Virus record (IMG/VR): IMGVR_UViG_3300031616_000001
Span: 32,001-96,000 of that record
Strand: one strand, 5' to 3'
Length of the DNA: 64,000 nucleotides
Origin: a virus
Shown: positions 470-15,511 of the stretch, piece by piece
How the letters are laid out: every line of letters begins with the position of its first letter
Position numbering within the stretch: the stretch's first letter is position 1
Notes under the pieces: model-generated
Seen by the model: only the letters and a program-made list of their open reading frames with translations
Database searches by the model: none
Told to the model about the DNA's origin: nothing
Translations under genes and position numbers: made by a program

Positions 470-633
470 CACGACTGCACCTCCGACTCGTTCTCGGCGA
501 CGACGATCTGCACGAGATCGACGGATATGCCGAGGGCCTGTGCGACCACGGCGCAGGCCTCGTCGTGATCGGAACCGCGCTTGACGGCGCGGGCGTAGGC
601 GTCGAGCACCCGCTTGCGTTCGATGATCGTCAT
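469..633 (-). CDS. Hypothetical protein (54 aa, MTIIERKRVLDAYARA...)
   Basis: Fills gap, translationally coupled at both ends. Confidence 0.55.
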   Translation of the reverse strand: MTIIERKRVLDAYARAVKRGSDHDEACAVVAQALGISVDLVQIVVAENESEVQS

Positions 634-1496: not shown

Positions 1497-1498
1497 GG

Positions 1499-1999: not shown

Positions 2000-2000
2000 G

Positions 2001-2348
2001 TCAGCCTCCTGCAGCCTCGGCAGCGCGGTCGTCTCGCTCGATCTGGGCGATGAGCAGCGCCGCGGCGCGCACCAGGTCTTCGCGTCGCGTCTTCGGCTTG
2101 CACTCGGCGCGGTCCCATGGCCAGACGCCGCCGGCATAGGACTCGAGGATCCATTTGCGAGAGACATTGCTCTCATCGGGGATCGGCAGGAGTTCCGCCG
2201 CCGAGTGGATGGCGTAGTAGCTTGCGGCCAGCGCGAGCTCGCCGAGATCGTGCTCGTCGTCGTGGGCGGCGTCATAGCCTTCGCCGGCCACCTGGCGCTG
2301 GCGCTCGGCGATCACGTCGTCCTGGGCGCGGGTTTGTGTCATGCGCAT
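2001..2348 (-). CDS. Conserved phage hypothetical protein
   Basis: AERQRQ..EGY...HDDEH..GELA...WPW...R..LVRAAALLIA pattern common in proteobacterial phages. Confidence 0.7.
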   Translation of the reverse strand: MRMTQTRAQDDVIAERQRQVAGEGYDAAHDDEHDLGELALAASYYAIHSAAELLPIPDESNVSRKWILESYAGGVWPWDRAECKPKTRREDLVRAAALLIAQIERDDRAAEAAGG

Positions 2349-2358
2349 GGTCTGGTCC

Positions 2359-2523
2359 TCAGTAGCTTGGTGCGGGGTTGGTGAGGCCCGACGTCGGCGC
2401 CCGCATGTGCAGGCGTTCGTCGAGCCAGATGTCGAGGATCTCGTCGGCCGGCCGGTAGGGCAGCAGCGCATCACGGCGCAACGCCTCCTCGTTGATCAGC
2501 GGTGGCATCTCTCGCGAGGTCAT
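2359..2523 (-). CDS. Hypothetical protein
   Basis: Coupled to upstream ORF; GGAG RBS. Confidence 0.4.
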   Translation of the reverse strand: MTSREMPPLINEEALRRDALLPYRPADEILDIWLDERLHMRAPTSGLTNPAPSY

Positions 2524-2894
2524 GACCTTCTCCTGGATCTGATGTGCGCGTGCGAGCGCTTGACCCGTGCCCGCAGCGTCAACTTGGAATTGATGAGCCA
2601 GTGCGACGACGGCAGATCGACACCGACCGCGCGGTAGGCGGTGGTGATGAGAGGGATCGCCTGCAAGCGCTTCGCCCGTTCGCCTACGACGGCCCGCAGC
2701 GTTCCGAAGTGCTCGTGGTTCGCCGCGAACTCGCGGAAGAACGGCCACGCCGGCGGCGTCCACCTGGCCACGATCTCGAGTGCCATGTCTTCCACCTGGA
2801 AGCAGATGAAGTGGAAGCGCCACTTGTCGAGACGGCCACCCTTCACCACGCCCGCGGAGGGGATGGTGATGGGGCGGGCGACATCGAGCAGCAC
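2520..2894 (-). CDS. Hypothetical protein
   Basis: ORF in operon context. Confidence 0.5.
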   Translation of the reverse strand: MLLDVARPITIPSAGVVKGGRLDKWRFHFICFQVEDMALEIVARWTPPAWPFFREFAANHEHFGTLRAVVGERAKRLQAIPLITTAYRAVGVDLPSSHWLINSKLTLRARVKRSHAHIRSRRRS

Positions 2895-2906
2895 GGTGGC
2901 CCCCGG

Positions 2907-3206
2907 TCAGATCTTCGAGCTGCGCGGCTTCTCGGCCGGCCCCTTGCGGCCGGCTGCAACTGCCTCCGGCGTCCATTCGAACTCGGGCCGTTCCATGACC
3001 GGCTTGTTGCTCGTCGTATCCAAGCGATTGACGTCGAACCAATGCGAGTCGAGTGGCTTGCCGTCCTTGTCGACACCTGGGTTCACGATCGCCTGAATGC
3101 AGCCGTAGAGATCGAAACCGATGGACGTCACAGTGCCCTTGAATCCGGTCACTCGGTCTTTGACGGGCATGCCGAGCATGTCCAGATGCTTCTTGAGATT
3201 CACCAT
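2907..3206 (-). CDS. Conserved phage hypothetical protein
   Basis: LG..VKDRVTGFKG.VT....LYGC pattern; AAGGAG RBS. Confidence 0.7.
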   Translation of the reverse strand: MVNLKKHLDMLGMPVKDRVTGFKGTVTSIGFDLYGCIQAIVNPGVDKDGKPLDSHWFDVNRLDTTSNKPVMERPEFEWTPEAVAAGRKGPAEKPRSSKI

Positions 3207-3236
3207 GGTCTTCTCCTTTGGATGGATGAGGTCAGG

Positions 3237-3914
3237 TCAGTGCGTCGCTGCCGCGCCGTCGCCGGTGTTCTGTTCGATAAAGGCGTCGGTCGCAGCGCGG
3301 TGTGCATCGCTCTTCGTCTTGGTCTTCGCAGGCTTCTCGGGCTCGGCAGCCGGGCCGGTGCCGGGCGCACCGCTACCGGCAGCCGAGTCGATTGCGTCGT
3401 CTTCCAAGAGGCTCGGTGCGAGCAGCCGAATGAAGATGCTCTTCTTCTGGCTCGATCCCATCTTGCCGATGAAGCGCTCCGTGATATCCGCCGCTGACAG
3501 GATCGTGAAAGCGATGTCGACGAGACCGCCGTCATGGGGCGTGATATCGAAGTGCTTGACCTCGCAAAGCTGGACGATCATGTTCGACTCGCCGCCCGTC
3601 CCATAGTCCACGTGGAACGTGTAGCCGGTGAACTCGCGATCCCAGCGGATCGGATAGTGCAGATCCTTGAAACGAACGAATGCGAGGTCATTGGCCTCGA
3701 GTGCCATCTCGCCTTGTTCGCTCCCTTGGTCTGGGGTGGCCGAGAACAGGTGCTCGCGCAGGCTCTTGTGGAGCATGTCGAGGGCATGGTTCTTGGTGCG
3801 CCAACGGACCACAGTTCGCTGCGTAGTGACGAGAGCCTCGCCGTGCTTTTTCGAGTTGGTATCGAAGTCAACGCACAGAACTTCTGAGACGTCGGTGATT
3901 TCAAATTGGGGCAT
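3237..3914 (-). CDS. Hypothetical phage protein
   Basis: 225-aa ORF with protein-like composition. Confidence 0.65.
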   Translation of the reverse strand: MPQFEITDVSEVLCVDFDTNSKKHGEALVTTQRTVVRWRTKNHALDMLHKSLREHLFSATPDQGSEQGEMALEANDLAFVRFKDLHYPIRWDREFTGYTFHVDYGTGGESNMIVQLCEVKHFDITPHDGGLVDIAFTILSAADITERFIGKMGSSQKKSIFIRLLAPSLLEDDAIDSAAGSGAPGTGPAAEPEKPAKTKTKSDAHRAATDAFIEQNTGDGAAATH

Positions 3915-3977
3915 GGGTTGCTTTCGGTGTGGTGAAGGTACTTTGTAATGCTAAGTTACGCGGCGACTGGAATGGCA

Positions 3978-4379
3978 TCAGAAGGGCTGGTCGTTGTCGA
4001 TCTCGCGATGCGACGTCAGGAGGCGATGCCGGTCCGCGTCGGGCAAGTTGTTGATGGCCTCCTTCACGCTGTACGGTTTCATGGGCTCGTGCTTAATGTC
4101 GAATGCCGCAACTTGCGCCGTGGCTTCGTCGCACCAGTTAATCGAGTAGATCGCCGCGGCACCGAAGGATCTGGTGTGTGCTGCGATCTCGCGGATGCTG
4201 ACCACGCGCTCACCATTCCTGAATTCGCTTTCGCGCACTGTCACGGCTGGCACGTCGACGCGAATGAACGCGGTGCCTCCGAAAGCCTGCTCGTTGATGG
4301 CGCCAGCGATACGGGCGTGGCCGAAGAGCTCGACGACCGCGTAGAGCTGAGGAGACTGAAAGTCGTCGATGGAAGGCAT
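3978..4379 (-). CDS. Conserved phage hypothetical protein
   Basis: AVVELFGHARIAG...FIRVDVP...AIYSI pattern; AGGAG RBS. Confidence 0.7.
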   Translation of the reverse strand: MPSIDDFQSPQLYAVVELFGHARIAGAINEQAFGGTAFIRVDVPAVTVRESEFRNGERVVSIREIAAHTRSFGAAAIYSINWCDEATAQVAAFDIKHEPMKPYSVKEAINNLPDADRHRLLTSHREIDNDQPF

Positions 4380-4491
4380 TCTTTGGCTCCTGCGAGGATT
4401 GAAGAAAAAAGGGCGGCCTTGCGGCGCGATCGGGGAATGGGTTCAGGGAGGGAGGAGGTTGTCCCGATCGGCGCGCCCCGGAAAATGGTTG

Positions 4492-5049
4492 CTAACTCGC
4501 TGGCGGCTTCGCCGGCAGTTCGACGAAATGGAACGGACCGGCCACGCCGGTGCTGAACGTCACGGCCGCATCCAGACCTGCCTGCAGACGTGCCATCGGA
4601 TCGGCGACGCCGCGCAGTGCGTGCATCGCGCCCATGGCGTAGCTTTCACCGCATCCGACGGCTGTGATGTCGTCGATGCACTCGGCGACCTGGAAGTCGC
4701 TGTGGATCGTGAACAGACTTCCGCGGAAGCCGACGATGAAGACACCGCCTTCATCGCGCCCGTTGACCGTCGTCGCGTATCCGCCGCTTTTCAGCGTTTC
4801 TCGGATGGCCGGCACCAGCGCCTTCACGGCGTACTCGAACGGCTGCTGACCTTCGACGATCGCCGGCGGCGACAGGTTGAACTGCAACAGCTGCAGCATC
4901 CTGAATGAAGACGTGCCTCCGATGATTAGGCCGCCGTTGAGGAACACCTTGCGGTCCTTGCGAATGCGCAGGTCCCAGCCGCCGACGCCGGCGCTGTCGG
5001 CACCGAGAATGATCTTGCCCTCGTGGGCGATACCGACGATGCAAGTCAT
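4492..5049 (-). CDS. Proteasome-beta/HslV-like Ntn-hydrolase
   Basis: Starts MTCIVG...GADS, KVF, AVGCG..YAMGAM; Thr2 as putative nucleophile. Confidence 0.75.
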   Translation of the reverse strand: MTCIVGIAHEGKIILGADSAGVGGWDLRIRKDRKVFLNGGLIIGGTSSFRMLQLLQFNLSPPAIVEGQQPFEYAVKALVPAIRETLKSGGYATTVNGRDEGGVFIVGFRGSLFTIHSDFQVAECIDDITAVGCGESYAMGAMHALRGVADPMARLQAGLDAAVTFSTGVAGPFHFVELPAKPPAS

Positions 5050-5429
5050 GCCGTGACTCCTCTGCGCGCGATCTCTTGTTTCAGCGCGTCTATCTCGGAC
5101 CCCGCGAACATGGTCTGCCGCACGGTGCCATCGTTCGCCGCGTACTCGGCTAGCATGCCGGGCACGAAGCCCCACGGCCGCGCAACTAAGTGGGAGGTGC
5201 AAAGCATTTCGATACCGAGGTACGTGAAGCGCATGCCGATGGCGACTGGCGGGTCGAACGCCATCAACGCAGCCACGGCTGCAGGCAGGGGAGTCACCGA
5301 CGGAGGCGGCACCGCGGATGCGGGTGCAGCCGTCCGGCGACGTTCGGCATTGCGCCCGTCGACGCGACCGCGGACGTAGATAAACACGAACGCGACGGCG
5401 ACGTAGAGGACTGCGGTTAGGCCGTCCAT
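5046..5429 (-). CDS. Hypothetical protein with N-terminal TM segment
   Basis: Hydrophobic N-terminus; coupled to next gene. Confidence 0.55.
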   Translation of the reverse strand: MDGLTAVLYVAVAFVFIYVRGRVDGRNAERRRTAAPASAVPPPSVTPLPAAVAALMAFDPPVAIGMRFTYLGIEMLCTSHLVARPWGFVPGMLAEYAANDGTVRQTMFAGSEIDALKQEIARRGVTA

Positions 5430-5431
5430 GA

Positions 5432-7555
5432 TCAGGCGTCCACGTCGTCGAAGACACTGCGCGTGCCGTCGGCGTTCATGAGGGTGCCGTCCTCGGCATA
5501 GAACTGGCCACCCGTCAGCGGAACAGCGCGCAGCGCTGACTTGAGCGCGGCCATCTCATCGTGCGGCACGATCCATGGCCCCGGCTTGCCGGCTCGCGGC
5601 TTCAGGGCTGCCGACTTCATGACGGCGGCGACCGCGGCCAGCAAGGTTCCCGCCGTCTCCAGGTACTTCTTCATGTCGTAGAAGACCTCTGGCGGCGCAT
5701 CAGCAGCGTGCAGCTCGCCGGTCTGCCGCAGATAGCCGATGTACCCCTCATCTGAAGTGATCGAGATCGCCTGCAGCTGATAGTCGCCGAAGTACCTCTT
5801 GCTGGGGACCGATCCTGGCTCGCCGGCATAGCCAAGCGCTTGGAATCCAAGAGAGAAAACGAAGTCTGGCGTCGGTGGCAAAGCCGACGTGCGGATCTCG
5901 AGCCAGCCGACAGGCTTGTTCTGATCGAAGCCGATCAGGATGGGCACGCGCGTGGTGTCCTCGTTGAGTACGACGGGCAGCGTGCCGTCGCCGGGGCCGC
6001 CGGGCAGCGCGTCGGCGGCATCGGTCAGCGCGCCGTGAACCGTTTGGTCGCTGCCCGTCGCCATGTCGACACCGATGACAATCGTCTCACCCTGGTGCAA
6101 TACGTCAGCCATTTCGGCCGGCACGTATCCGCTCGGCGTATCGGCCAGCGCCAGCGCGGCCTTGACGTCGGCCACCTGCTCAACCAGCGGCGGCGCATCG
6201 CGGCTCGCGACCAGCTCGGCCAGGTAGCTGCGCAGGCTGACCAGCGTCGCGTCCTTCACGGCCTGCGCCGAGCCCACGAGGATCCCGAAGTTGGCGTCGT
6301 CGATTAGCCAGGCCTCGGTCTCTGCGATGATCTTCTCGACGTCGTCGACGTTGGCACCGGTGTAGTAGGGGATGCGGCCGACGTGGGCGATGACCAGCTG
6401 CTGGCGAATGCCGTCGATCTGCTGCATGGCCATTTGCGTGCGCTCGGCTGCCGCGGCTTGCTCGTCGCGAAGGCGCCGGGTTTCGGCGTCGGCGGTCTTC
6501 TGGTCGGTCTCGCGCTGCAGGACGACCCTGTGGAAGTCGTGGAGCTCATGCAGCGCCTTGTCGCGCGCCTTGACAGCCACGGCCGCGAACTCGCCGAGCT
6601 CATCGCCGACGGCAACGTGTTCGATCAACGTGACCAGCTCCAGCAGGCCGGCGGCCGACGACGTGAAGGCTCGGCGCTGGATGCGGTCGATCTCGGCCAC
6701 CAGTTCGCTTGCGGCGTCGCTGCGCGCGCGGCGATCGTCGGCGGCCCGCTGCTCGGCTGCGCGCTGCGCGTCGGCGACCCGACGCTGCTCGACGTCGGCG
6801 GCCTCGCGCTGCCGGCGCTCCTCGGCCTCGCGGGTGATGCGCTCGGCGTTCTCGCGCTCGAGTTGCGCGAGGCGCAGGCGGTTCGCTTCGGCCTCGGCTT
6901 CACGCTGCTCGGAAGACTTTGCAATGCTAAGTAAATCGGCCAACTTCAGGAGCGTCTCGGCCTTTGCGTTGACGGCGTGCGGCTCGAACTCTTCGAAGTC
7001 CGCGCCGACGACGATGCGCGCAACCATGTCGATGCGCTCCTGGATCTGCGCCGACGTCATGCCTACCGCGCGCACGGCGACGTTGGTGATGTCGGCGATG
7101 CGATCGCGGTGGCCGGCCTGGCGTTCGGCCTCGGCGGCGTCGCGCTCTGCCTTCTCACGCACCCTGCGCTGCTCGTCTGCGGTGATCTGCTGGTCGGCCG
7201 AGTTGTAGATCTCCTCGGTGATGCCGACGAATCGTTCGGCCTCGCTCTCCAGCCTGATGATCTTCTCGGCGACGCTGGCCTTCAATTCACGCTTTTTGTC
7301 GGCACAGCGCTTCTCGATGGTCGTCATCGTGCGCTTGAGCATCTGCCGATCCTTGCGGGCGCGGTCGTTGCCTTTGATCGTCGTCAAGTCGTAGGCGATG
7401 CCCTTGAGCTTGAGCATCTCGTTCAGGCCGTGGATGAGGTCCTTGTATTCCTCGAGCTCTGTCGAGACAAGTGCGACCTCGGTGCCCGGCGTTTTGTCGT
7501 CGACGACATCAGGGCCTGCCGTGCCCGCGGATTCTTCATTTTCGCTCATGGTCAC
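5432..7555 (-). CDS. Large coiled-coil phage protein
   Basis: 707 aa, E/R/A-rich helical stretches; recombination-region context. Confidence 0.7.
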   Translation of the reverse strand: MTMSENEESAGTAGPDVVDDKTPGTEVALVSTELEEYKDLIHGLNEMLKLKGIAYDLTTIKGNDRARKDRQMLKRTMTTIEKRCADKKRELKASVAEKIIRLESEAERFVGITEEIYNSADQQITADEQRRVREKAERDAAEAERQAGHRDRIADITNVAVRAVGMTSAQIQERIDMVARIVVGADFEEFEPHAVNAKAETLLKLADLLSIAKSSEQREAEAEANRLRLAQLERENAERITREAEERRQREAADVEQRRVADAQRAAEQRAADDRRARSDAASELVAEIDRIQRRAFTSSAAGLLELVTLIEHVAVGDELGEFAAVAVKARDKALHELHDFHRVVLQRETDQKTADAETRRLRDEQAAAAERTQMAMQQIDGIRQQLVIAHVGRIPYYTGANVDDVEKIIAETEAWLIDDANFGILVGSAQAVKDATLVSLRSYLAELVASRDAPPLVEQVADVKAALALADTPSGYVPAEMADVLHQGETIVIGVDMATGSDQTVHGALTDAADALPGGPGDGTLPVVLNEDTTRVPILIGFDQNKPVGWLEIRTSALPPTPDFVFSLGFQALGYAGEPGSVPSKRYFGDYQLQAISITSDEGYIGYLRQTGELHAADAPPEVFYDMKKYLETAGTLLAAVAAVMKSAALKPRAGKPGPWIVPHDEMAALKSALRAVPLTGGQFYAEDGTLMNADGTRSVFDDVDA

Positions 7556-7565
7556 TCCGTTTGAA

Positions 7566-7802
7566 TCAAAGGTCTTGGTCGCGAGCGACGCGCATGCTCT
7601 GCCGATCGCGAGCCACGTCAGCCGCGCAATCCCTGTAGAGCAACTCGCTGCACGGCTTCGGATTCATGTTCTCGTAGCACCAGCACAGGTACTGCGGGTC
7701 CTTCTCGCCGATCTGTGATGGTGTGAGGCCGGGATACTTCCGGCTGCGCGCCATCGGCGCGTGGTCGAGGTCTTCGGCGACTGTCATTTCTAGTTCCATC
7801 AA
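7566..7802 (-). CDS. Small protein resembling ExoX C-terminal/DUF3820-like module
   Basis: KYPG.T..QI..KDPQYLCW pattern. Confidence 0.5.
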   Translation of the reverse strand: MMELEMTVAEDLDHAPMARSRKYPGLTPSQIGEKDPQYLCWCYENMNPKPCSELLYRDCAADVARDRQSMRVARDQDL

Positions 7803-8284
7803 GAGGTAGGGATCTCGCGCTGCAGGCTGACCTGCTGCTTTGGCTTTGGCGGCTCGATCTCTTTCATCATGGCGGAAGCCTGTGAGAGAACGGCTGCACC
7901 AAGACGCATGACGTGCAACTGCTTGCTCTGCTCAATTTGCGTGAGCGTCTCGGCACGTACCATCGTCACACGCCGGATGCTCTTGCCTTGCTTGCGCGTG
8001 CCCTGCTTGAATCCCTTGATGTTCGTGTCCAGTCGCTCGACGCCAGTGAGCGCGCGAAAGCCGATCGTCGGAATTGCCGCGATCTCGATGTTGTGGCTGT
8101 TCAACATCTCTTTTCGCCAGGCGAGCGTGACGCACCGATAGCGGTTCGACTTCGGACTGAGCCCGATCACCGCCTCGATCTGCTCGTGCGTGAAGTCGGT
8201 GCCTTCTGCGATCTCTGGGAACGCAGTGCGCAGCTTCTTGACATCAGGGGCTGTTGGAACGCCCCCAAGAAACAACTTGCTCAT
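7799..8284 (-). CDS. Hypothetical protein, candidate accessory gene of the GGY-NN repeat locus
   Basis: AAAGGA RBS and ATG immediately follow array 4. Confidence 0.7.
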   Translation of the reverse strand: MSKLFLGGVPTAPDVKKLRTAFPEIAEGTDFTHEQIEAVIGLSPKSNRYRCVTLAWRKEMLNSHNIEIAAIPTIGFRALTGVERLDTNIKGFKQGTRKQGKSIRRVTMVRAETLTQIEQSKQLHVMRLGAAVLSQASAMMKEIEPPKPKQQVSLQREIPTS

Positions 8285-8299
8285 CTCGATTCCTTTCAA

Positions 8300-8371
8300 C
8301 TATGCGCGTAGCGCCCGTGCCCCGGCTTGCTCTGCAACGCCCGGCCACGCCTTGCCAGACCACAACAAGAC
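8300..8371 (-). repeat. GGY-NN pentamer array 4 (12 units, more degenerate) with short tail
   Basis: Minus strand: gtctt gttgt ggtct ggcaa ggcgt ggccg ggcgt tgcag agcaa gccgg ggcac gggcg ctacgcgcatag. Confidence 0.85.
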
Positions 8372-8375
8372 GGGA

Positions 8376-9038
8376 TTAGATCTCTTGAACCTCTGCGGTG
8401 AACATCCCGAACGAGCCCGGCGTCGTGCTGCCAGGTCGCCAATCGCAGAGCCCCTTATATTCGCCGGAGAAGCTCACGATCTCCTGGAGAACTCGCTTAG
8501 TGATCTGCTTGTCCCAGACGCTGATCGTTCCGGTCGCTGACCATCGATCGAAGCGGGGACGAACGCGAATGTGTTTGCTCTTGCCGATCTTGGCGCGCTT
8601 CACGAACAGGCTGAAGCCCATCGCAGCACATGCCACCTTGTGCTCGGCGAAATCTTGGACCTTCATCAGGTCTGCAATCGGCGCCCATAGCAGCGGCTGA
8701 CCGTCGATCAGAAGCGGCCAGTGCATGTCATCGACACGCATGCCACTCTGGGTCTGAGCTTTGAAAGTCTTGTTGCCGCGTCCGCCTGGCACGGGGACCA
8801 TGGCGCCGCCTTCCATCAGGCACCGCATCAGGTTGTCGACCGGAACAGTCACGAACTGTTCATCCTGGTAGCAGCTGCCGAGCCAACGCCACGCCGGTGT
8901 TCTGTCATCGCCAGCCTTGCTCGACTTTTGATTGGCGGCATCATCCTTCCATGCCGACATCCTGTCCGCCCAGTCGATATCATCAGAGTGCATCAGTAGC
9001 GGCGTCTTGCCTGTGATGGTCACTGAGAATTTCTTCAT
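8376..9038 (-). CDS. RAMP/Cas7-like putative RNA-binding effector flanked by GGY-NN arrays
   Basis: N-terminal strand VTITGKTPLLMH, central RVRPRFDRW, C-terminal Gly-rich loop G.YKGLCDWRPG...GSFGMF; AGGAGG RBS. Fold is inferred. Confidence 0.7.
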   Translation of the reverse strand: MKKFSVTITGKTPLLMHSDDIDWADRMSAWKDDAANQKSSKAGDDRTPAWRWLGSCYQDEQFVTVPVDNLMRCLMEGGAMVPVPGGRGNKTFKAQTQSGMRVDDMHWPLLIDGQPLLWAPIADLMKVQDFAEHKVACAAMGFSLFVKRAKIGKSKHIRVRPRFDRWSATGTISVWDKQITKRVLQEIVSFSGEYKGLCDWRPGSTTPGSFGMFTAEVQEI

Positions 9039-9058
9039 CGCTTCCTCCTAGAGTTGAT

Positions 9059-9135
9059 CAATGCGCATTGCGCCCTTGCCACACCACACCTTGCCCGGCC
9101 GTGCCCAGCCCGGGCGAGCCATGCCAAGCCTTGGC
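9059..9135 (-). repeat. GGY-NN pentamer array 3 (13 units) ending in palindrome CAATGCGCATTG
   Basis: Minus strand: gccaa ggctt ggcat ggctc gcccg ggctg ggcac ggccg ggcaa ggtgt ggtgt ggcaa gggcg caatgcgcattg. Confidence 0.9.
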
Positions 9136-9265
9136 TGGAGTGGTGCATTCGCACCGGCAACCATCGCACGCGACGGAAGCCGCTGTGAACAGCCCTTGCC
9201 AAGCCTGACCGCGCCGCGCCCCGCCGTGCCGAGGCTTGCCATGCCATGTCAGGCCACGCCGCGCT
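9136..9265 (-). repeat. GGY-NN pentamer array 2 (15 units) plus structured tail
   Basis: Minus strand: agcgc ggcgt ggcct gacat ggcat ggcaa gcctc ggcac ggcgg ggcgc ggcgc ggtca ggctt ggcaa gggct, then hairpins and ccggtgcgaatgcac. Confidence 0.9.
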
Positions 9266-9375
9266 AGTGCAACCGCACCGGGATAACGGCAGAACCGCCA
9301 ACCCGCTGCGTTCGCAGCCCCTGCCAGGCCGAGCCGTGCCTTGCACTGCCACGGCGTGCCATGCCGCGCCACACC
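9266..9375 (-). repeat. GGY-NN pentamer array 1 (12 units) plus structured tail
   Basis: Minus strand: ggtgt ggcgc ggcat ggcac gccgt ggcag tgcaa ggcac ggctc ggcct ggcag gggct, then hairpins and ccggtgcggttgcac. Confidence 0.9.
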
Positions 9376-9396
9376 GAGTGGCATCATGGAAGTAGT

Positions 9397-9945
9397 TCAA
9401 TGCGGGCTCCTGTGACGCGGCTTGGCCATATACCGAGCGCCTTCGCGCTCGCTCGGCTCGAACTCGAATGTCACGCCGTACTGCACGATCGCGTCGTCGA
9501 TGATCTGATCGGTCCAGATCGCGTACTTCTTCGGGCCCAGCGATTCGCTCGAGACATAGACCTTGTGCGGCGTGCGCTTCTTCGCCACGCGCCGCACGCC
9601 GGTCTTCTTGTCGACCACCTCGCCGCGGCGCATTTCCCAATGGAAGAGAAAGCGTTCGTTGTAGACGAGCTTCCACTGGTCGACGGGCCAGAGTTCAGTT
9701 TTTCCGGTCAGCTGACCCTTGCTGTCGAAGAGCGGAATGCGCACCTGATCGCTGATCTGCTTCAGCACGGCGCCGTGCAGAAACTTGCGCTGCTTGATCG
9801 TGATCGGATCCAGCGCCGGGCCCACCCGCAGCTCTACCTGTTCGCCGTTGTCGAGGAGGCATCGCGCATGAGTCATCGCAGCAATGAACTTCTCACGCGC
9901 TCCGGCTTCGGTCGCGATCACCACGAGGTAGATCTCGTCGTTCAT
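9397..9945 (-). CDS. Hypothetical, possibly NinB-like protein
   Basis: T.KQRKFLHG.VLKQISDQV...W....WK pattern; next to recombination genes. Confidence 0.5.
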   Translation of the reverse strand: MNDEIYLVVIATEAGAREKFIAAMTHARCLLDNGEQVELRVGPALDPITIKQRKFLHGAVLKQISDQVRIPLFDSKGQLTGKTELWPVDQWKLVYNERFLFHWEMRRGEVVDKKTGVRRVAKKRTPHKVYVSSESLGPKKYAIWTDQIIDDAIVQYGVTFEFEPSEREGARYMAKPRHRSPH

Positions 9946-10235
9946 TCGGCCAGCCTCCGCAGCACGTCGGCCAGCAGATCGAACTCACTGCCGACACCCA
10001 AGGCAAGCATGAGCGGTGGCTTTGCCAGATGCACGGACGCGCGCGTCCCGTTGTGATGCATCTCGCACAGCGGAATGGTGAGGAAGTCGTCGCGCGCAAT
10101 CCGGCCCTCGCGGATGTGGTGTACCTGTGCCCCCGCGTGGCCGTAGCCGAGGCGATGGCAAACGATGCATCCGATTTCAGCGACGCGACCCATGTGGCGC
10201 GAGGCTGCGGCGGTGGCGGCGATCTTGCGGCGCAT
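9942..10235 (-). CDS. Ref/DUF968-like HNH-related Zn-binding protein
   Basis: GCIVC...QVHHIR...TIPLCEMHH motif. Confidence 0.75.
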   Translation of the reverse strand: MRRKIAATAAASRHMGRVAEIGCIVCHRLGYGHAGAQVHHIREGRIARDDFLTIPLCEMHHNGTRASVHLAKPPLMLALGVGSEFDLLADVLRRLAE

Positions 10236-10236
10236 C

Positions 10237-11136
10237 TCAGGCCTCTACGCCGAACTTCTTCGCCGCGGCGATGCGCAGTGCGGCGCGATCGTCTTCAGGC
10301 ATGTGAGCGATGCCATCGAGCAGCAGGTCGACCTCGGCCTGGTTGCGGGCCGTCGTGATGCGCTTGAAGAGGCGTTCGAACTCCGTGGGCTTCACGGCGG
10401 ACGGCGCGAACGCTGCGCGAACCGTAAGCGGCGCCGGCAGCGTGCGCCTTGCGATCTTCTGCAGCTTGGCGGGCATGTCTTCGACGGCCGCGAAGGGCGC
10501 GCGCAGGATGCGCTCGTACTCGTCGACCATGGCCTTGAACTCCATGAGATCGCTCTCGAGCTTTTCGATGAAGTCGTCGTCGCGGTAGATCCGCTTGCGC
10601 CAGAGTTGCTTGCCGGCTGGCGCCAGGGCAGGGCAGTACAGGCAGAAGTCCATCCACTGCCGACGGCTGATCCACAGGCCGCCCTGCACTTGATCGATGA
10701 CCATTGACGTGTCGCCGGTCGTCCAGATCTTGCGAAGCTTCAGCGGTGCCAGGAAGCACTTGTACTCAGCAGATCCATCGTCTTCGATGACACCGTCGAG
10801 GCTGCCGCCGAAGACCTCGTCGTCGGTCATGATGAAGCCGACGCGCTGCACGAACAGACCGATGTCGATCTCGTGCTCGTGCCGCGCGTCAGGCTCGAGC
10901 TCATGCCCGCGAGTCATGTACCACGTCTCGTAGTTCTCATCGAGCGGCTCGCCGCTGATGCGCTCGATGGCAATGCGGAACGCTTCGTCCTTGGCATCGC
11001 TGCTGTACTCACCGGCTTCATCACCACGCTTCAGCCGGGCGGACTCGCGCATCAGATGGAAGTTGGAGCACGTCAGCTTGCCGACGCGCGCCTGCTTCCA
11101 TGGCTTGCTGCCCTGCTCGCAGAGAACTTCTTTCAC
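10237..11136 (-). CDS. YqaJ/lambda-exonuclease family recombination nuclease
   Basis: QGSKPW...R.GKLT.S, RGHELEP.AR, SLDG, EYKC, QVQGGLW motifs. Confidence 0.9.
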   Translation of the reverse strand: MKEVLCEQGSKPWKQARVGKLTCSNFHLMRESARLKRGDEAGEYSSDAKDEAFRIAIERISGEPLDENYETWYMTRGHELEPDARHEHEIDIGLFVQRVGFIMTDDEVFGGSLDGVIEDDGSAEYKCFLAPLKLRKIWTTGDTSMVIDQVQGGLWISRRQWMDFCLYCPALAPAGKQLWRKRIYRDDDFIEKLESDLMEFKAMVDEYERILRAPFAAVEDMPAKLQKIARRTLPAPLTVRAAFAPSAVKPTEFERLFKRITTARNQAEVDLLLDGIAHMPEDDRAALRIAAAKKFGVEA

Positions 11137-12296
11137 TTGGCCGCGCCCTTGCCTTCAGCCGCCTTGATGTCGCGCACGAAGTCGTCGTCGACTTCGCCTG
11201 TGCCGGGATCGGCGGCCTGCGCAGCCGTCTGAGGCGGCGGTGCATCGGCGGTGGTAGCGGCGGCCGGCGCAGGTGCGGACGCCGGAGCGTTGTCGACGGT
11301 GCGCTCGCGGTCGACGGCGACGGCCTTGTCCTTCAGGCGCTGGTGCTCACCGGCGAGCAGCCGGCGATTCTCTTGGCCGGTGCCGGCGAAGAACTTCTGA
11401 TAGGCGGCGACGCCCTTGTCAGCAGCGGTCTCGGCTGCCTTCAGGAGCGCATCGGGAATCTTCGGTCCGACGTCGTCGACCGGGCCCATGTCGCGCGGCG
11501 CGTTCATCTCCTGCAGGTCGTCGACCGTGTGCACGCCGAGCATGCACTGCGGCGCGTACATGCGCTGCCAGAGCTTCTGCGCGAGATAGAAGATCTGCTG
11601 CTGCGGGTTGGTCGTCCACAGCGTCGAGTTGCGCGTCAGCGCCTGCGCCATCAGCACCTCGAGGTACCGCGGCTCCTTCTCACCGGTGAGCGTCGTCCAC
11701 ACCTTGATGCCGAGGCCGACCTCGTCGGCGGGCTTCCAACCGGGCACCTTGTACTTCGCCGGATGGCCGTGATCGTCCTGCTTCTTCTTGCTCTCGCGCT
11801 CTTCGAAGCGGCCGTTGATCTTCGTCCAGTCGCCGAAGTATTCGATGTGCAGCGCCTCCTTGATGGCGCCCATGTTCTTCATCACGGCGCCGATGACCTG
11901 CGACTCGTAGCCGAGCTTGCCATTGATCATGTGCGTCTTCTCCGCGAGGCCGTAGAAGTCCAGGCCCCATCGGTCGGCGCGCATGGCGATCGCCGTGCAG
12001 TCGGCGGCGTTGCCCTTCAGGTGTGCCGGCAGCGTGGCATTGCCCTTCGACACGAACGAGCCGAAGTCCATGTAGGCCTTCATGGCGGCGGCGTTCGTGA
12101 TCTGCGAGAGGCCGAGGCTGGAGTTCTCGGTCATCGCGACGAGCGCCTGCTCGACGCGGGCCATCAGCCGCACGCCATCCGCGGTTGTCGCCAGCTCCGT
12201 CGACGAGCGCAGGTCGCGCAGCAGTTCGGGGATGCCGCCGGCGCTCGGCGCGATGGTCGCGGTGCTGATCTCGGTGCTCGTGTCTTGCGTCGTCAT
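11133..12296 (-). CDS. recT: RecT-family ssDNA annealing protein
   Basis: PAHLKGN.ADC.AI.M.A..WG.D......KTH..NG.LGYE and NS.LW...P.QQ motifs; adjacent to exonuclease. Confidence 0.8.
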   Translation of the reverse strand: MTTQDTSTEISTATIAPSAGGIPELLRDLRSSTELATTADGVRLMARVEQALVAMTENSSLGLSQITNAAAMKAYMDFGSFVSKGNATLPAHLKGNAADCTAIAMRADRWGLDFYGLAEKTHMINGKLGYESQVIGAVMKNMGAIKEALHIEYFGDWTKINGRFEERESKKKQDDHGHPAKYKVPGWKPADEVGLGIKVWTTLTGEKEPRYLEVLMAQALTRNSTLWTTNPQQQIFYLAQKLWQRMYAPQCMLGVHTVDDLQEMNAPRDMGPVDDVGPKIPDALLKAAETAADKGVAAYQKFFAGTGQENRRLLAGEHQRLKDKAVAVDRERTVDNAPASAPAPAAATTADAPPPQTAAQAADPGTGEVDDDFVRDIKAAEGKGAAK

Positions 12297-12327
12297 GTCG
12301 GTCTTTCTTCGGCGTTCGCCGTGGTGG

Positions 12328-12573
12328 TCAGATCTTCTCGAGGAGGGCGAGCTCGACGCGCAGCTCGGCCGCGCGCTTCTCGTGGTGCTTGATGCGCTGC
12401 GGCAGACCATCGAATTCGGCCTTGAGGTGCGCGGTGTCGGACTCGGCGCTGGCGATCAGCTTGCGCACGTAGATGGCCTTGAACCAGGCGACGGTCTTCG
12501 CGGCGCCGAGACGGATCAGGTCGCCGGCGACGAGGTGCGGCGCCGAGCGCGTTGGGGTCAAGACGGCGCTCAT
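12328..12573 (-). CDS. Hypothetical protein
   Basis: Coupled ORF in leftward operon. Confidence 0.5.
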   Translation of the reverse strand: MSAVLTPTRSAPHLVAGDLIRLGAAKTVAWFKAIYVRKLIASAESDTAHLKAEFDGLPQRIKHHEKRAAELRVELALLEKI

Positions 12574-12812
12574 TGCGATCTCCCTGTTGCTTCGAGAAGC
12601 ACCGCGCGCATCTCCGTTTCCATCGCCAGGTCATCGCGGCGGTCGCCGCCGAGCGACTTGAAGTCGGGCTGATGCAGGCGCACCAGCGCGGCGACGGCGG
12701 CCCAGTGACAGGAGAAGGCGCCGATCACCTGCGGCTGCCGCATGTTGTTCGCGAGGATCACGCGCTTGCCCGACACGTAGGGCTGCGCTTCGCTGACGCC
12801 GCCGGGCTTCAC
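12570..12812 (-). CDS. Hypothetical protein
   Basis: GTG start overlapping upstream stop. Confidence 0.5.
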   Translation of the reverse strand: MKPGGVSEAQPYVSGKRVILANNMRQPQVIGAFSCHWAAVAALVRLHQPDFKSLGGDRRDDLAMETEMRAVLLEATGRSQ

Positions 12813-13036
12813 GCGGTTTGCCTCGCCGTTCTGATGCGCGCGTCGCGGTTGGCGCAGATCACCATGTCGGACGCTTGACCGATCGTGGCGTCGATGGCCT
12901 GGCGGCGGCGCTCGGCATTGGCCTGAGCGGTCTTCAGGCCTTCGGCGCTTCGCGCGCCTGCCAGGTCGGCCTGACGCAGGCGTGATTCCTCGGCGCCCCA
13001 GGCCAGCATCGCGTCGGCGTCCATGTCGCGGTACAT
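12809..13036 (-). CDS. Hypothetical protein
   Basis: Coupled ORF (MYRDMDADAML...). Confidence 0.45.
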   Translation of the reverse strand: MYRDMDADAMLAWGAEESRLRQADLAGARSAEGLKTAQANAERRRQAIDATIGQASDMVICANRDARIRTARQTA

Positions 13037-13380
13037 CACAGCCGAGACTCGTCCGCGGTGATGCAACGCGCGTCTGGGTCGTGTTGCGTGAAGAGTCCGC
13101 CGTCGACCACGATGACCGCTGCCGACGTCGGCGACTGAGGCGCGAAGGCCGCGCGGGCCGCACGCCTCAAGGCTTCGCAATGCTGATCCTGCGCGCTGGA
13201 ATCGGGGTCGCAGCACCCGCGCCCGTTGGGCATGGGCGTCGAAGAGCGGATGGCGTCGTCGGCGACGAACTGGATGAGGTTGTCCAGCGCGTCCTCGAAG
13301 GCTTCCTCGTGCGGGTTGACTGCCGGCGCCGGCGCGACGGGCAGACCACGTATATCGGCAGGTGTGTGCTGTGCTGTCAT
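13036..13380 (-). CDS. Hypothetical protein (QHTP N-terminus)
   Basis: Coupled ORF. Confidence 0.5.
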   Translation of the reverse strand: MTAQHTPADIRGLPVAPAPAVNPHEEAFEDALDNLIQFVADDAIRSSTPMPNGRGCCDPDSSAQDQHCEALRRAARAAFAPQSPTSAAVIVVDGGLFTQHDPDARCITADESRL

Positions 13381-13679
13381 GACGTGGTCCCGGTTGCTTT
13401 GGCGATTGCGGCGCGAGCGGCCATCAAGCGCAAACGATCCTCATGGCGCTCCTGCTGCGTGGTGGGCGCACCAGCGCGGCAGTAGGCTTCGTCTAAACCC
13501 TGCAGCGCAGCCAGCAAATCAGGCGCGCCGGCTGCATCAAGTGCGGATTGCGCATCAGCGAGGTGCTCTTGCCCGTAGACCTTCCACGCGTCGTCGAAGT
13601 CAACGTTGCACTCATCTGCGGCTCGCTTGCACAAGGCTCGCGCTGCGGCGACAACCATCGGCGTGTGCTGCGCGTTCAT
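13377..13679 (-). CDS. Hypothetical protein (QHTP...APDLLAAL...AAIAKATG type)
   Basis: Common phage terminal modules. Confidence 0.65.
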   Translation of the reverse strand: MNAQHTPMVVAAARALCKRAADECNVDFDDAWKVYGQEHLADAQSALDAAGAPDLLAALQGLDEAYCRAGAPTTQQERHEDRLRLMAARAAIAKATGTTS

Positions 13680-13996
13680 GCGGCGCGCCCGGTAGCCGCG
13701 ACGATGTCAGCAGCCGTGAGCCGCCGGCATTGCCCGATGTGTCGCGGCGGACCCATGGAGTCGCCGTGGCCAGCCCAGCCCCAATACATGCAGGCGTTCG
13801 GGTTGATCTCGGCGATCTGCCGGCGCAGCGCGTTGACTTGCGCGACGCGCCCCAACTCGCTGCGAAGATTCGGCCACTCGGTGATGGCGTTGATCTTGCG
13901 CCAGGTCTCGGCAAACGAGCCGCCGCGGCAGACCGCGAGCAGTTCGCGCTGCAGGTCGTCAACGGTGCGCGGCACCGGCGGTTGCTCCGCGCTCAC
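13676..13996 (-). CDS. Hypothetical protein
   Basis: GTG start overlapping upstream stop. Confidence 0.5.
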   Translation of the reverse strand: MSAEQPPVPRTVDDLQRELLAVCRGGSFAETWRKINAITEWPNLRSELGRVAQVNALRRQIAEINPNACMYWGWAGHGDSMGPPRHIGQCRRLTAADIVAATGRAA

Positions 13997-14223
13997 AGCC
14001 CGAACCCCAGCTTCCAGCAGGCTGACGCCGCCGCGGCGACGCCGATCGCGGCGATCCACATCCACGGGAACCAGGTCGGATCAGGCTCGGCCACGCGCGC
14101 CGGCGCCGGCCGCGATGCCGTGGCGCCGATGTGATGCACGACGGCCGTGTGGAACTCGACGAGCGGCGGCAGCGGCGTGCCGGGCACGGCCGGCCGCAAG
14201 ACGAGGCGTGCGCCGGCCTTCAC
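13993..14223 (-). CDS. Hypothetical protein with C-terminal TM segment
   Basis: Coupled ORF. Confidence 0.45.
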   Translation of the reverse strand: MKAGARLVLRPAVPGTPLPPLVEFHTAVVHHIGATASRPAPARVAEPDPTWFPWMWIAAIGVAAAASACWKLGFGL

Positions 14224-14357
14224 GACAGATCTCCGCGCTTGACGAAGAGCACGAGCGCCGCGGCCGCCGCGATGCCACCGTTCCAGGCGCTGCCCACGGA
14301 CAGCGCCGCGACGAGGTTGCCGGCGCCGAGCGCGCCGAGCCAGATCCGGTAGGTCAT
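14220..14357 (-). CDS. Small membrane protein
   Basis: Hydrophobic 45 aa; GAGGAG RBS. Confidence 0.45.
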   Translation of the reverse strand: MTYRIWLGALGAGNLVAALSVGSAWNGGIAAAAALVLFVKRGDLS

Positions 14358-14542
14358 GACTGCTCCTCGAAGTCGAGAGGGATGTCGCAGACGTCCTGTG
14401 TTTCCGCAGCTGGCGGCTCGCGCAGCACCAGCGCCAGCTCGGCGCGCACGCGGTCCTTTGCCACGGACTTGCGGAAGCTCTGGCTCACCGCGATGAGCCG
14501 CACCTGCGCGCCGGGATACAGAAAGGTGGGGGCGACGGTCAC
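14354..14542 (-). CDS. Hypothetical protein
   Basis: Coupled ORF. Confidence 0.45.
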   Translation of the reverse strand: MTVAPTFLYPGAQVRLIAVSQSFRKSVAKDRVRAELALVLREPPAAETQDVCDIPLDFEEQS

Positions 14543-14811
14543 GACGCCGCCGGCTTGTTGCCTGCCGCCGGCGCAACGACATGCACCTGGTAGTCCGTGG
14601 GGGCGATGGAATTCCAGACGGCGAAGTCAGGATCCAGACGCTGCTGGGCTTCGCGCAGCGCCGCGCGTTCGGCGCGTCCCGCGCGGACGACGCGCATGTC
14701 TTCGCTGTAGTCGAAGGCCCAGTCGTGCGCCGTGAGTGCGGCGACGTAGGCCGCCTGCTGTTCATCGCTGACGGCCTGCCCGACGGGTACGCCCGGTGTG
14801 GTGTCTGTCAT
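14539..14811 (-). CDS. Hypothetical protein, first gene of left operon
   Basis: GGAGG RBS; L..HDW.F.YSED pattern. Confidence 0.6.
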   Translation of the reverse strand: MTDTTPGVPVGQAVSDEQQAAYVAALTAHDWAFDYSEDMRVVRAGRAERAALREAQQRLDPDFAVWNSIAPTDYQVHVVAPAAGNKPAAS

Positions 14812-14853
14812 CTCGGTGTCCTCCGACACGTGATTTCGAATGGGTCTGAACGC

Positions 14854-14892
14854 ACTATAGCAGCGCAAAGCAAAAACGCAAGCATTGCTAAA
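14854..14892 (-). promoter_or_regulatory. Leftward sigma70-like promoter with abutting operator
   Basis: Minus strand TTGCGT-16nt-TATAGT with extended -10 TG; palindrome AGCATTGCT at the -35 edge. Confidence 0.75.
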
Positions 14893-14947
14893 TATCATTC
14901 CGTGGAGAATCGGGGCCCCCGACGCCAATCCACCTGGGAGACGCTCC

Positions 14948-15511
14948 ATGAAAGCACTCGTCGCCATTGCAGTGTTGTCCGCGGCATCCGCGCACGCTCA
15001 GCTGGCTTTCAAAGGTCTGCCGCTCGGTGTCGATCGACAGCAGCTGACGCAGCAGTTCCCATCGCTGCGATGCCAACAGGTACCGCCGCAGTTCAGTCGC
15101 CTCGGCGAGCAGCGCTGCACCAGCGCACCGTGCAACAGCGATGCATGCAGGGCCTCAGAGAAGGCCCTGGGTTCTTACGGCGGCATGCCGGCATGGGACA
15201 CCGGCTTTTCAGTCGTCGGCGGCCGCGTGGCGGCTTTCGATCTCGTCGTCAACGCGACATCGTATGAGGCCGTGCGCGAGGCATTGCGCGAAGTCCATGG
15301 CGCCGGCGAAGAGCAGGTCGTCGCCATGCAGACGGCCGGCGGCGCGAAGGTCAACGCGAGGCTGTGGACGGTGAAGACCGCCGACGGCAAGATCTCTCTG
15401 TACGAACGCGCCGTGAACTACGACACGGGCCGGGTGCAGGCAGAGACCACGGCGTTCACGCGGTGGTTGGAGGCTGCTCCGGCTTCGCGAAAAAACGCAC
15501 GTGATTTATGA
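14948..15511 (+). CDS. Secreted/periplasmic protein (moron-like)
   Basis: Signal peptide MKALVAIAVLSAASAHA; opposite orientation to flanking operon. Confidence 0.7.
   Translation: MKALVAIAVLSAASAHAQLAFKGLPLGVDRQQLTQQFPSLRCQQVPPQFSRLGEQRCTSAPCNSDACRASEKALGSYGGMPAWDTGFSVVGGRVAAFDLVVNATSYEAVREALREVHGAGEEQVVAMQTAGGAKVNARLWTVKTADGKISLYERAVNYDTGRVQAETTAFTRWLEAAPASRKNARDL

What the first reader, a model, noticed from the sequence alone, without database searches (positions are those of the whole stretch)
7799..9390. Candidate RNA-guided system: RAMP/Cas7-like gene flanked by four GGY-NN pentamer arrays
Seen: four non-coding tracts on the gene's strand made of 12-15 five-nt units with near-constant GGY and a variable dinucleotide, each closed by GGGCT or GGGCG. 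NN strings: array 1 GT GC AT AC GT AG AA AC TC CT AG; array 2 GC GT CT AT AT AA TC AC GG GC GC CA TT AA; array 3 AA TT AT TC CG TG AC CG AA GT GT AA; array 4 TT GT CT AA GT CG GT AG AA GG AC. Variation concentrated in two of five positions is not what slippage produces. The 220-aa protein has an N-terminal strand and C-terminal Gly-rich loop reminiscent of RAMP proteins. Known: Cas7-type RAMPs polymerise along guide RNA with a fixed nucleotide period. Inference: one subunit binds each GGY and the NN pairs spell a gapped 22-28 nt target, giving four guides, perhaps against competing phages. I recall a recent report of a similar phage architecture under the name VIPR but cannot verify it here, so novelty needs checking.
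Basis: partly seen in the sequence, partly recalled or inferred. Interest (0 to 1): 0.95.

Follow-up and report, generated by a model that had tools for sequence, protein, structure and literature searches.

The report
Phage VIPR locus with four guides
This stretch of an uncultivated phage genome carries a VIPR system, a CRISPR-like RNA-guided DNA silencer first described in 2026, so it is a real but already known kind of system whose targets remain unidentified.

Summary
Four GGY-NN pentamer tracts lie on the minus strand around the 220-aa gene, against 0.02 expected in shuffles.

The interpretation also holds, and it is already in print. The gene is a Vipr protein:
- It matches the solved SUSP1 Vipr chain, 36pp_D (E 1.8e-9 alone, 1.8e-14 as a profile).
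- Its model has a Cas7-type RAMP fold.
- The SUSP1 residues that hold the two guanines are conserved.

The downstream 161-aa gene is a remote vap1 homologue (hhalign 94.5%) with a winged-helix model.

In relatives, 80 of 85 loci carry same-strand arrays and 74 of 85 carry the vap gene. Near-identical relatives carry different NN strings. Tails form hairpins with compensatory changes.

The window is a tailed-phage genome. VIPR is described in four 2026 preprints.

No target was found for any of the four guides. Expression could not be tested.

This scan has noted VIPR-type loci before, on other DNA: 504 notes in at least 377 genomes.

Verdict: a new member of a known kind, of low to moderate interest.

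The parts
9261..9375 (-). vrRNA1 gene. The repeat tract (9375-9321) has 11 GGY-NN units. The long tail (9320-9261) has hairpins.
   Evidence: Units listed. The tail folds at -32.7 kcal/mol, z -2.86. The two-hairpin consensus has compensatory changes in 24 related tails.
9131..9260 (-). vrRNA2 gene. The repeat tract (9260-9196) has 13 units. The long tail is 9195-9131.
   Evidence: Tail -30.3 kcal/mol, z -2.69. Included in the covariation alignment A4.
9039..9130 (-). vrRNA3 gene. The repeat tract (9130-9076) has 11 units. A short tail hairpin (GCGC-AAT-GCGC) is followed at once by the ribosome-binding site and start of vipr.
8376..9038 (-). vipr: a 220-aa stand-alone RAMP (Cas7-like) protein.
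   Evidence: phmmer hit to PDB chain 36pp_D 'SUSP1 Vipr protein', E 1.8e-9 over residues 1-214. Profile E 1.8e-14. phrog_4652, E 8.4e-23. AlphaFold2 pLDDT 82.1. All ten top Foldseek hits are CRISPR RAMP subunits. H17, R160, D199, W200 and R201 align with SUSP1 H17, R138, D177, W178 and R179.
8303..8361 (-). vrRNA4 gene, between vipr and vap. The repeat tract (8361-8317) has 9 units, the last four degenerate. A short tail hairpin (GCGC-TAC-GCGC) lies just before the vap ribosome-binding site.
7799..8284 (-). vap1-like accessory gene, 161 aa from the ATG at 8284 (ORF listing gives a TTG at 8299). The model is a winged-helix domain plus two long helices.
   Evidence: Homologue next to vipr in 74 of 85 related loci. 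hhalign of alignment A3 against SUSP1 vap1: probability 94.5%, E 8.2e-8, 87 columns. Model pLDDT 92.6. Weak Foldseek hits to winged-helix DNA-binding domains.

Best explanation
This is a VIPR (Viral Interference Programmable Repeat) locus of an uncultivated tailed phage. It is most like the published type II arrangement: vrRNAs, then vipr, then vap1.

The mechanism below is inferred by homology to phage SUSP1. It was not measured here.
1. The minus strand is transcribed through three guide genes, vipr, a fourth guide gene and vap.
2. The transcript yields four vrRNAs of roughly 60 to 130 nt. Each is a tract of 9-13 pentamers capped at the 3' end by a hairpin tail.
3. One Vipr protomer binds per pentamer and holds the GGY bases in protein pockets. 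The aligned residues here are H17, R160, D199, W200 and R201.
4. The NN pairs are left exposed.
5. The filament binds double-stranded DNA whose sequence reads xNN with a 3-nt period (the one-base skip). The expected footprints are about 27-39 bp, and binding blocks transcription of the bound gene.
6. The winged-helix Vap1-like protein assists.

The expected targets are a competing prophage, satellite or phage in the unknown host. They were not found.
For: Shown here:
- Four strand-specific pentamer tracts far above chance.
- The protein matches the solved SUSP1 Vipr chain (E 1.8e-9; profile E 1.8e-14 and the only PDB hit).
- Its best phage-collection matches cover 99% of it at 27.4% identity in phiSUSP1.
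- The model's ten top Foldseek hits are Cas7-type subunits of type VII and type III CRISPR complexes. The best is 8yhe_F, E 1.6e-4, TM 0.46/0.52.
- Five SUSP1 residues said to contact G1, G2 and Y3 are identical in the alignment.
- 80 of 85 homologous loci carry such tracts on the vipr strand. Only 1 small tract lies on the other strand.
- Over 3,523 units, positions 4 and 5 use all 16 dinucleotides.
- Loci with 93% or more identical Vipr carry different guides.
- 176 of 216 distinct tails begin with a hairpin, against a mean of 71 in shuffles, and they use 61 different stems.
- 9 of 12 consensus pairs in 24 long tails show compensatory change.
- The vap gene is conserved in 74 of 85 loci and is a remote homologue of SUSP1 vap1.
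- No guide matches its own 118-kb genome above shuffled controls, as published for other VIPRs.
- The context is a phage.

From the papers: mechanism, one-base skip rule and silencing.
Against: - No natural target was found for any guide. Exact xNN scans of the viral and metagenome collections gave nothing or chance-level single hits. Searches allowing 3 mismatches found nothing in 8 genomes, 401 genomes and 43 viral records.
- In 590 kb of related loci the one-base skip gave no more good matches than skips of 0, 2 or 3 bases. The code is therefore not independently confirmed for this clade.
- Identity to SUSP1 Vipr is only 27-31%.
- The SUSP1 residues lining the pyrimidine pocket and contacting the target backbone are not identical: E71/M72 align with N69/L70, C173 with K195, and K33 with D32.
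- 8 of 44 triplets are not GGY, and 3 of those 8 are in vr4.
- No consensus promoter or terminator lies on the minus strand.
- There is no Rfam family for these RNAs.
Confidence: 0.92

Rival explanations
1. The locus is a VIPR relative that reads its target differently from SUSP1. It might use another skip length, target RNA, or use only some of the units. In particular the last unit may belong to the constant handle rather than the guide.
For: - No target was found under the one-base skip rule.
- Pocket and backbone-contact residues differ from SUSP1.
- The last NN is AA in 118 of 231 distinct arrays of the clade, which suggests it is not free to vary.
- Paper 1 and a later survey report non-canonical repeat units in other VIPR clades.
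Against: - The residues that hold G1 and G2 are identical, and the 5-nt period is the same.
- Skips of 0 and 2 bases gave no hits either, and at 3 bases the only perfect hits are the arrays themselves.
- One relative's guide matches another phage's ATPase gene at 17 of 18 bases under the one-base skip, with the skipped base on the codon's third position.
- The lack of targets is explained equally well by the unknown host and the exact-match limits of the scans.
Confidence: 0.05
2. The tracts act as DNA, not RNA. They would be arrays of binding sites, for example for the winged-helix neighbour, or the product of replication slippage or a hypervariable coding repeat. The RAMP-like gene would then be merely adjacent.
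For: - Several ORFs run through the tracts, for example 9058-9387 (-) at 109 aa.
- In one homologue the called protein starts inside an array (P0120).
- No RNA data exist for this locus.
Against: - A 5-nt period cannot keep a reading frame.
- The tracts sit on the vipr strand in 80 of 85 loci, with 1 small tract on the other strand. Symmetric DNA sites would not require that.
- Each tract is followed by a hairpin kept through compensatory changes, which points to selection on RNA.
- Slippage would copy whole units, yet variation sits in 2 of 5 positions.
- Homologous tracts in SUSP1 are transcribed and co-purify with Vipr (paper 1).
Confidence: 0.02
3. The locus is a decaying or idle copy. The guides have lost their targets and the system no longer acts.
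For: - vr4 has 3 of 9 triplets off consensus.
- No targets were found (as listed above).
Against: - Both ORFs are intact and all residues invariant in the family alignment are present.
- Tails and ribosome-binding sites are intact.
- Paper 1 says internal degeneracy is common in working vrRNAs.
Confidence: 0.03

Closest known systems
Type II VIPR systems of Escherichia phage SUSP1 and a Pseudomonas fulva prophage (bioRxiv 10.64898/2026.04.26.720920 and 10.64898/2026.04.26.720927)
   Same: - A stand-alone Vipr RAMP with conserved H, R and DWR residues.
- GGY-NN pentamer guides of 9-13 units on the gene's strand.
- A structured 3' tail that starts with GGG.
- A small vap1-type partner gene.
- A phage host genome and no self-targeting.
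- The gene order of three guides, then vipr, then vap1 is the one described for the P. fulva construct.
   Different: - Only 27-31% identity to SUSP1 Vipr, with two insertions.
- A guide gene sits between vipr and vap. In SUSP1 the two genes are 2 bases apart.
- The tails differ. Here a short hairpin stands alone or is followed by a second, covarying hairpin. In SUSP1 the tail contains a pseudoknot.
- Repeats are GGC-rich rather than GGT-rich.
- Targets are unknown.
- The type assignment is my inference from the vap1 match. The papers' type tables are in supplements that I could not open.
Cas7-family subunits of class 1 CRISPR effectors (type VII Cas7, type III Csm3, Cas7-11)
   Same: The fold: an RRM core, a thumb hairpin and a Gly-rich loop. 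One subunit binds per fixed RNA period.
   Different: - No CRISPR array was seen by Tandem Repeats Finder in window 1-20000.
- Neither locus protein nor the upstream 182-aa neighbour matches any PADLOC or NCBIfam model, and Pfam models matched among the eight neighbouring genes none that is Cas-like.
- The period is 5 nt rather than 6, and the guide is noncontiguous.
- The system is encoded by a phage.
Solo (orphan) vrRNAs of satellites and VIPR-less phages (bioRxiv 10.64898/2026.10.15.759431; abstract and outline only)
   Same: The same kind of guide RNA gene.
   Different: Here all four guides sit beside their own vipr gene, and no further guide lies elsewhere in the 118-kb genome.

Membership tests
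VIPR system | A Vipr protein: a single-RRM RAMP homologue with a thumb and a Gly-rich loop. | tested here: met
   Sequence match to the solved SUSP1 Vipr. The Foldseek top ten are all Cas7-type subunits. The Gly-rich loop motif DWRPG is invariant across 40 homologues.
VIPR system | Residues that lock the GGY bases: SUSP1 H17, R138, D177, W178, R179. | tested here: met
   They are identical in the alignment, as window H17, R160, D199, W200 and R201. The pyrimidine-pocket residues E71, M72 and C173 and the backbone contact K33 are not identical.
VIPR system | vrRNA genes: tandem YNNGG/GGY-NN repeats (9-16 in the studied clades) flanking vipr on its strand, with constant GGY and hypervariable NN. 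| tested here: met
   Four tracts of 9-13 units. Relatives carry arrays in 80 of 85 loci, use all 16 NN, and swap guides between near-identical loci.
VIPR system | A conserved structured 3' tail capping each repeat tract. | tested here: met
   All four tracts here have a hairpin directly after them. So do 176 of 216 distinct tails of relatives, against 71 in shuffles. 9 of 12 pairs carry compensatory changes. A pseudoknot like that of SUSP1 was not tested.
VIPR system | A minimal locus with a vap accessory gene and no CRISPR array or cas genes, mostly viral. | tested here: met
   The vap1-like gene. No match for either locus protein in PADLOC or NCBIfam. No CRISPR-like repeat in window 1-20000. 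The genome is a virus record with terminase, head and portal genes.
VIPR system | vrRNAs are expressed as discrete RNAs of about 100 nt and co-purify with Vipr. | not testable with these tools
   Only two DNA runs hold the stretch, and no RNA run is listed.
VIPR system | Guides match natural targets under the one-base skip rule (80% or more of NN positions) and do not match their own genome. | tested here: inconclusive
   No self-match above shuffles. No credible external target. The host is unknown, and collection scans allow exact matches only.
VIPR type II (vap1-associated) | Vipr phylogeny, vrRNA architecture and a vap1 partner, as defined in paper 1. | tested here: inconclusive
   Remote homology to vap1 (hhalign 94.5%), and the gene order matches the P. 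fulva construct. The phylogenetic placement and the papers' type tables, which are in supplements, could not be checked.
CRISPR-Cas class 1 effector | A Cas7 backbone together with a CRISPR array and other cas genes. | tested here: not met
   The fold is shared, but there is no array and no other cas-like gene near it.

The most novel reading that the evidence does not exclude
This large environmental clade (1,828 homologues) may be a VIPR subtype with its own RNA architecture, in three respects:
- Guides behave as interchangeable cassettes. Each is capped by a hairpin, or by two covarying hairpins.
- The last repeat is semi-constant (AA).
- The final hairpin abuts the ribosome-binding sites of vipr and vap, so cutting out the guides could set the level of the two proteins.

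Its targets, still unknown, could be a class not yet described for VIPR.
Probability: 0.2. Interest if true: 0.4.

Novelty: new member of a known kind. Interest (0 to 1): 0.3.

Why it matters
VIPR is a newly described RNA-guided DNA-binding system that has been proposed as an ancestor of CRISPR. This locus adds a divergent, intact example from a 118-kb phage whose only full DNA holder is a root-metagenome run. It also shows that its clade is widespread in environmental phages and exchanges whole guides between close relatives.

It does not change the picture drawn by the 2026 preprints, and this scan has met such loci many times. Its practical value is as a candidate for testing whether the one-base skip rule and the vap1 function hold at 27-31% identity, and for finding what soil and root phages aim these guides at.

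Tried and rejected
1. Self-targeting. The best one-base-skip matches of the four guides in the 118-kb genome were 15/22, 17/26, 15/22 and 14/18. These equal the shuffled-order controls, with means of 15.4, 17.4, 15.1 and 13.5.

2. Targets in 477 kb around related vipr genes. The best matches were 17/22, 18/26, 16/22 and 13/18, within the controls.

3. Exact xNN scans.
- Viral contigs: vr1 full 0, vr3 full 0, vr2 last ten units 0.
- Viral contigs: vr4 nine units gave 1 hit (L087). The nine central units of vr3 and of vr1 gave 1 hit each (L088, L089).
- All three hits lie in contigs of 42-53% G+C, against 65% here. Extension adds 1 of 4 bases for L088 and L089, and the two degenerate upstream units of vr4 are not matched in L087. 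I treat all three as chance.
- Metagenome contigs: vr1 0, vr3 0.

4. Searches allowing up to 3 mismatches.
- vr1 in 8 bacterial genomes that carry related loci: 0.
- vr2 in 401 genomes of the order of G003: 0.
- vr2, vr1 and vr3 in the 43 longer of the 71 related viral records, taken whole: 0 each.
- vr4 was not run in these searches.

5. Skip-rule test within the clade. 172 guides against 590 kb with the arrays masked gave no excess for a skip of one base.

6. Other searches that returned nothing.
- Rfam: no family with E up to 1.
- Consensus promoter and terminator scan: nothing on the minus strand.
- Pfam, PADLOC and NCBIfam: no family for Vipr or Vap.
- PDB sequence search with the Vap profile: nothing meaningful.

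7. Expression. No RNA holder is listed.

8. Host. The large terminase's best matches among isolated phages are below 60% identity, in enterobacterial temperate phages. I did not name a host.

9. Neighbouring genes. BLASTP of the 166-aa and 182-aa neighbours against SUSP1 vap1 gave nothing. The profile comparison was needed. The 182-aa, 78-aa, 97-aa and 707-aa neighbours have no homologue in any related locus, so I rejected them as parts of the system.

10. First locus scans. The search for related loci with the single protein found nothing. The alignment query worked.

11. What I could not see. The papers' supplementary tables (the lists of 664 loci and their types) were not opened, because supplements are closed. 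They may already list this clade or this record.

Not used: complex prediction, the search of protein representatives, the protein-atlas search, the listing of cluster members.
Full report
**What is in the sequence**

All genes in window 5400-12400 run on the minus strand. Reading 5' to 3' on that strand, the stretch holds:
- a 182-aa ORF (9945-9397);
- three tracts of five-base units (9375-9321, 9260-9196, 9130-9076);
- the 220-aa ORF (9038-8376);
- a fourth tract (8361-8317);
- a 161-aa ORF (8284-7799, counted from its ATG).

The tracts have 11, 13, 11 and 9 units, and 36 of the 44 triplets are strictly GGY.

A scan that keeps the five-base phase finds exactly these four tracts in the window, against a mean of 0.02 in 100 dinucleotide-preserving shuffles. 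It finds no others in the whole 118-kb contig.

**The protein**

- Pfam, PADLOC and NCBIfam have no model for it. PHROGs places it in phrog_4652, of unknown function (E 8.4e-23).
- Against the sequences of solved structures, its only real hit is chain 36pp_D, named 'SUSP1 Vipr protein'. The E-value is 1.8e-9 over residues 1-214, and 1.8e-14 with a profile of 40 homologues.
- In the phage collection it matches 122 records. These are mostly Felix O1-like enterobacterial phages, including phiSUSP1 at 27.4% identity over 99% of its length.
- An AlphaFold2 model (pLDDT 82.1, pTM 0.79) gives Foldseek hits whose first ten are all Cas7-type subunits of type VII and type III CRISPR complexes. The best is E 1.6e-4, TM 0.46/0.52. 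That library ends on 8 April 2026 and lacks the Vipr entry.

The structural preprint names the SUSP1 residues that hold the repeat: H17 and D177 for G1, R138 and W178 for G2, and R179 with E71, M72, C173 and T175 for the pyrimidine.
- In my alignment H17, R138, D177, W178 and R179 are identical, as window H17, R160, D199, W200 and R201.
- E71/M72, C173 and the backbone contact K33 are not identical.
- Position 175 of the SUSP1 translation reads V in my copy, not T. I leave that unexplained.

**The partner gene**

The 161-aa protein has no BLASTP similarity to SUSP1 vap1. However:
- A homologue lies beside vipr in 74 of the 85 related loci, while the other four neighbours occur in none.
- A profile of 35 of these proteins aligns to SUSP1 vap1 with probability 94.5%, E 8.2e-8, over 87 columns.
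- Its model (pLDDT 92.6) is a winged helix-turn-helix followed by two long helices.
- Foldseek hits are weak. The best is an uncharacterised protein at E 3.3e-3, followed by GntR-, OmpR- and ArsR-type DNA-binding domains.

This agrees with paper 1, which calls the type II vap a predicted DNA-binding protein.

**Relatives**

The family is large: 1,828 proteins with E up to 1e-3, and the best is 90% identical. An alignment query brought in 14 loci from bacterial genome contigs and 71 from viral contigs.
- Arrays. 80 of the 85 loci carry GGY-NN tracts on the vipr strand, and one small tract lies on the other strand.
- The five loci without strict tracts.
  - L006 is a short contig and L012 holds only part of vipr.
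  - L085 has only a 31-residue match.
  - L066 and L081 show, by eye, degenerate NGC-NN tracts with the same tail hairpins.
- Variation. Over 3,523 units, not deduplicated, positions 4 and 5 are close to even and all 16 dinucleotides occur. The scan itself rewards GGY, so positions 1-3 are not an independent result.
- Guide swapping. Where Vipr is 93% or more identical, guides differ as whole cassettes. In the twelve loci L021-L032 the guide next to vipr is the same in all twelve, and the upstream ones come in several versions.
- Length and end. The median tract length is 12 units, and the last NN is AA in 118 of 231 distinct arrays.

**Tails**

Each tract here is followed by G and a short hairpin. 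In vr1 and vr2 the tail runs about 60 nt to the next tract and folds well (z -2.86 and -2.69).

Among relatives, 176 of 216 distinct tails start with a hairpin of at least 4 bp. Shuffled tails average 71, with a maximum of 87. The hairpins use 61 different stems.

RNAalifold on 24 long tails gives two hairpins, and 9 of the 12 pairs carry compensatory changes. A third hairpin (GGTGC...GCACC) is visible in many rows but did not enter the consensus.

The SUSP1 tails also begin with GGG but differ in sequence. Paper 1 describes a pseudoknot there, which I did not test here. The tails of vr3 and vr4 end 10-20 nt before the start codons of vipr and vap.

**Context**

The tool states that the window's genome is a virus record of 118,179 bases.
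- The window encodes a large terminase, a head protein with protease, and a portal.
- Next to the locus it encodes RecT, a YqaJ-type exonuclease and a Ref-like nuclease.
- G+C is 64.7%.
- One root-metagenome run holds the whole stretch and may be its source. A soil run holds a small share (0.07 of the sampled words), which I did not lay.

**Literature**

Two searches found four relevant preprints:
- The discovery paper, 10.64898/2026.04.26.720920. I read sections 4, 18, 20, 26 and 27 and ran a term search.
- The cryo-EM paper, 10.64898/2026.04.26.720927. I read the outline and sections 5 and 6.
- The satellite-competition paper, 10.64898/2026.10.15.759431. I read the abstract and outline only.
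- A language-model survey, 10.64898/2026.10.21.760802. I read passages only. It reports 99 VIPR-like clusters with a period of 5.

- One protomer binds per repeat.
- The GGY bases are sequestered.
- The NN pairs read a target in which every third base is skipped.
- The outcome is transcriptional silencing of competing phages and satellites.

**Targets**

None was found. Guides do not match their own genome or the 477 kb around related loci above shuffled controls. The exact scans of the viral and metagenome collections gave nothing or single chance-level hits. The searches allowing 3 mismatches found nothing in 8 genomes, 401 genomes or 43 viral records. The full list is in Tried and rejected.

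Within the clade, the one-base skip did not outperform other skips on 590 kb. There is one suggestive case. A guide shared by L047, L049 and L055 matches 17 of 18 bases inside an ATPase gene of L046, with the skipped base on the third codon position. I expect about 0.16 such hits by chance, by my own estimate assuming even base use.

**Verdict**

The locus meets every VIPR criterion that sequence analysis can test. It most resembles type II, but the type and the targets remain open. It is a new member of a known kind. This scan has already logged 504 notes with these words in at least 377 genomes, so its interest is low to moderate.

Noticed in passing
L046:1280-1306 (-), guide at L047:2752-2796: A 9-unit guide shared by L047, L049 and L055 matches 17 of 18 NN bases under the one-base skip. 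The site lies inside a 305-aa P-loop ATPase ORF (803-1720) of another VIPR-bearing viral contig, with the skipped base on the third codon position. It is a possible case of one VIPR phage targeting another.
   Followed up: partly
L021-L032, about 350 nt upstream of vipr: Twelve viral contigs with near-identical Vipr share the vipr-proximal guide but carry several alternative upstream guides. This looks like cassette-like exchange of whole vrRNA genes.
   Followed up: partly
related loci, ends of arrays: The last NN before the tail is AA in 118 of 231 distinct arrays, and AA, GA and AG are common in the penultimate unit. The 3'-most repeat may therefore be part of a constant handle.
   Followed up: partly
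protein P0120: Its 55-residue N-terminal extension, rich in G, A and R, looks like a translated pentamer array. The gene caller probably started the vipr ORF inside a guide gene.
   Followed up: no
L066:3655-4250 and L081:3655-3905: Two relatives lack strict GGY tracts but show NGC-NN-like pentamer runs, each ending in the usual GG-hairpin tail. These are degenerate or non-canonical repeat units.
   Followed up: partly
window 9942-12410 (-): Directly upstream of the locus lie three genes: a Ref-like RecA-dependent nuclease (97 aa), a YqaJ-type exonuclease (299 aa) and RecT (425 aa). Together they form a phage recombination module.
   Followed up: no
window 32826-32900 (+): ARAGORN calls a tRNA-like gene with an undetermined anticodon. 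Other readers' notes place Y-RNA-like units and a Ro60-type gene there.
   Followed up: no
window 7566-7802 (-): The 78-aa ORF overlapping the end of vap has a sub-threshold match to the ExoX-like C-terminal domain (22.1 bits against a cut-off of 26.5). It has no homologue in the related loci.
   Followed up: no
window 17037-23214 (+) and 44262-46832 (-): Large DNA methyltransferase and helicase-methyltransferase genes are present in the phage.
   Followed up: no
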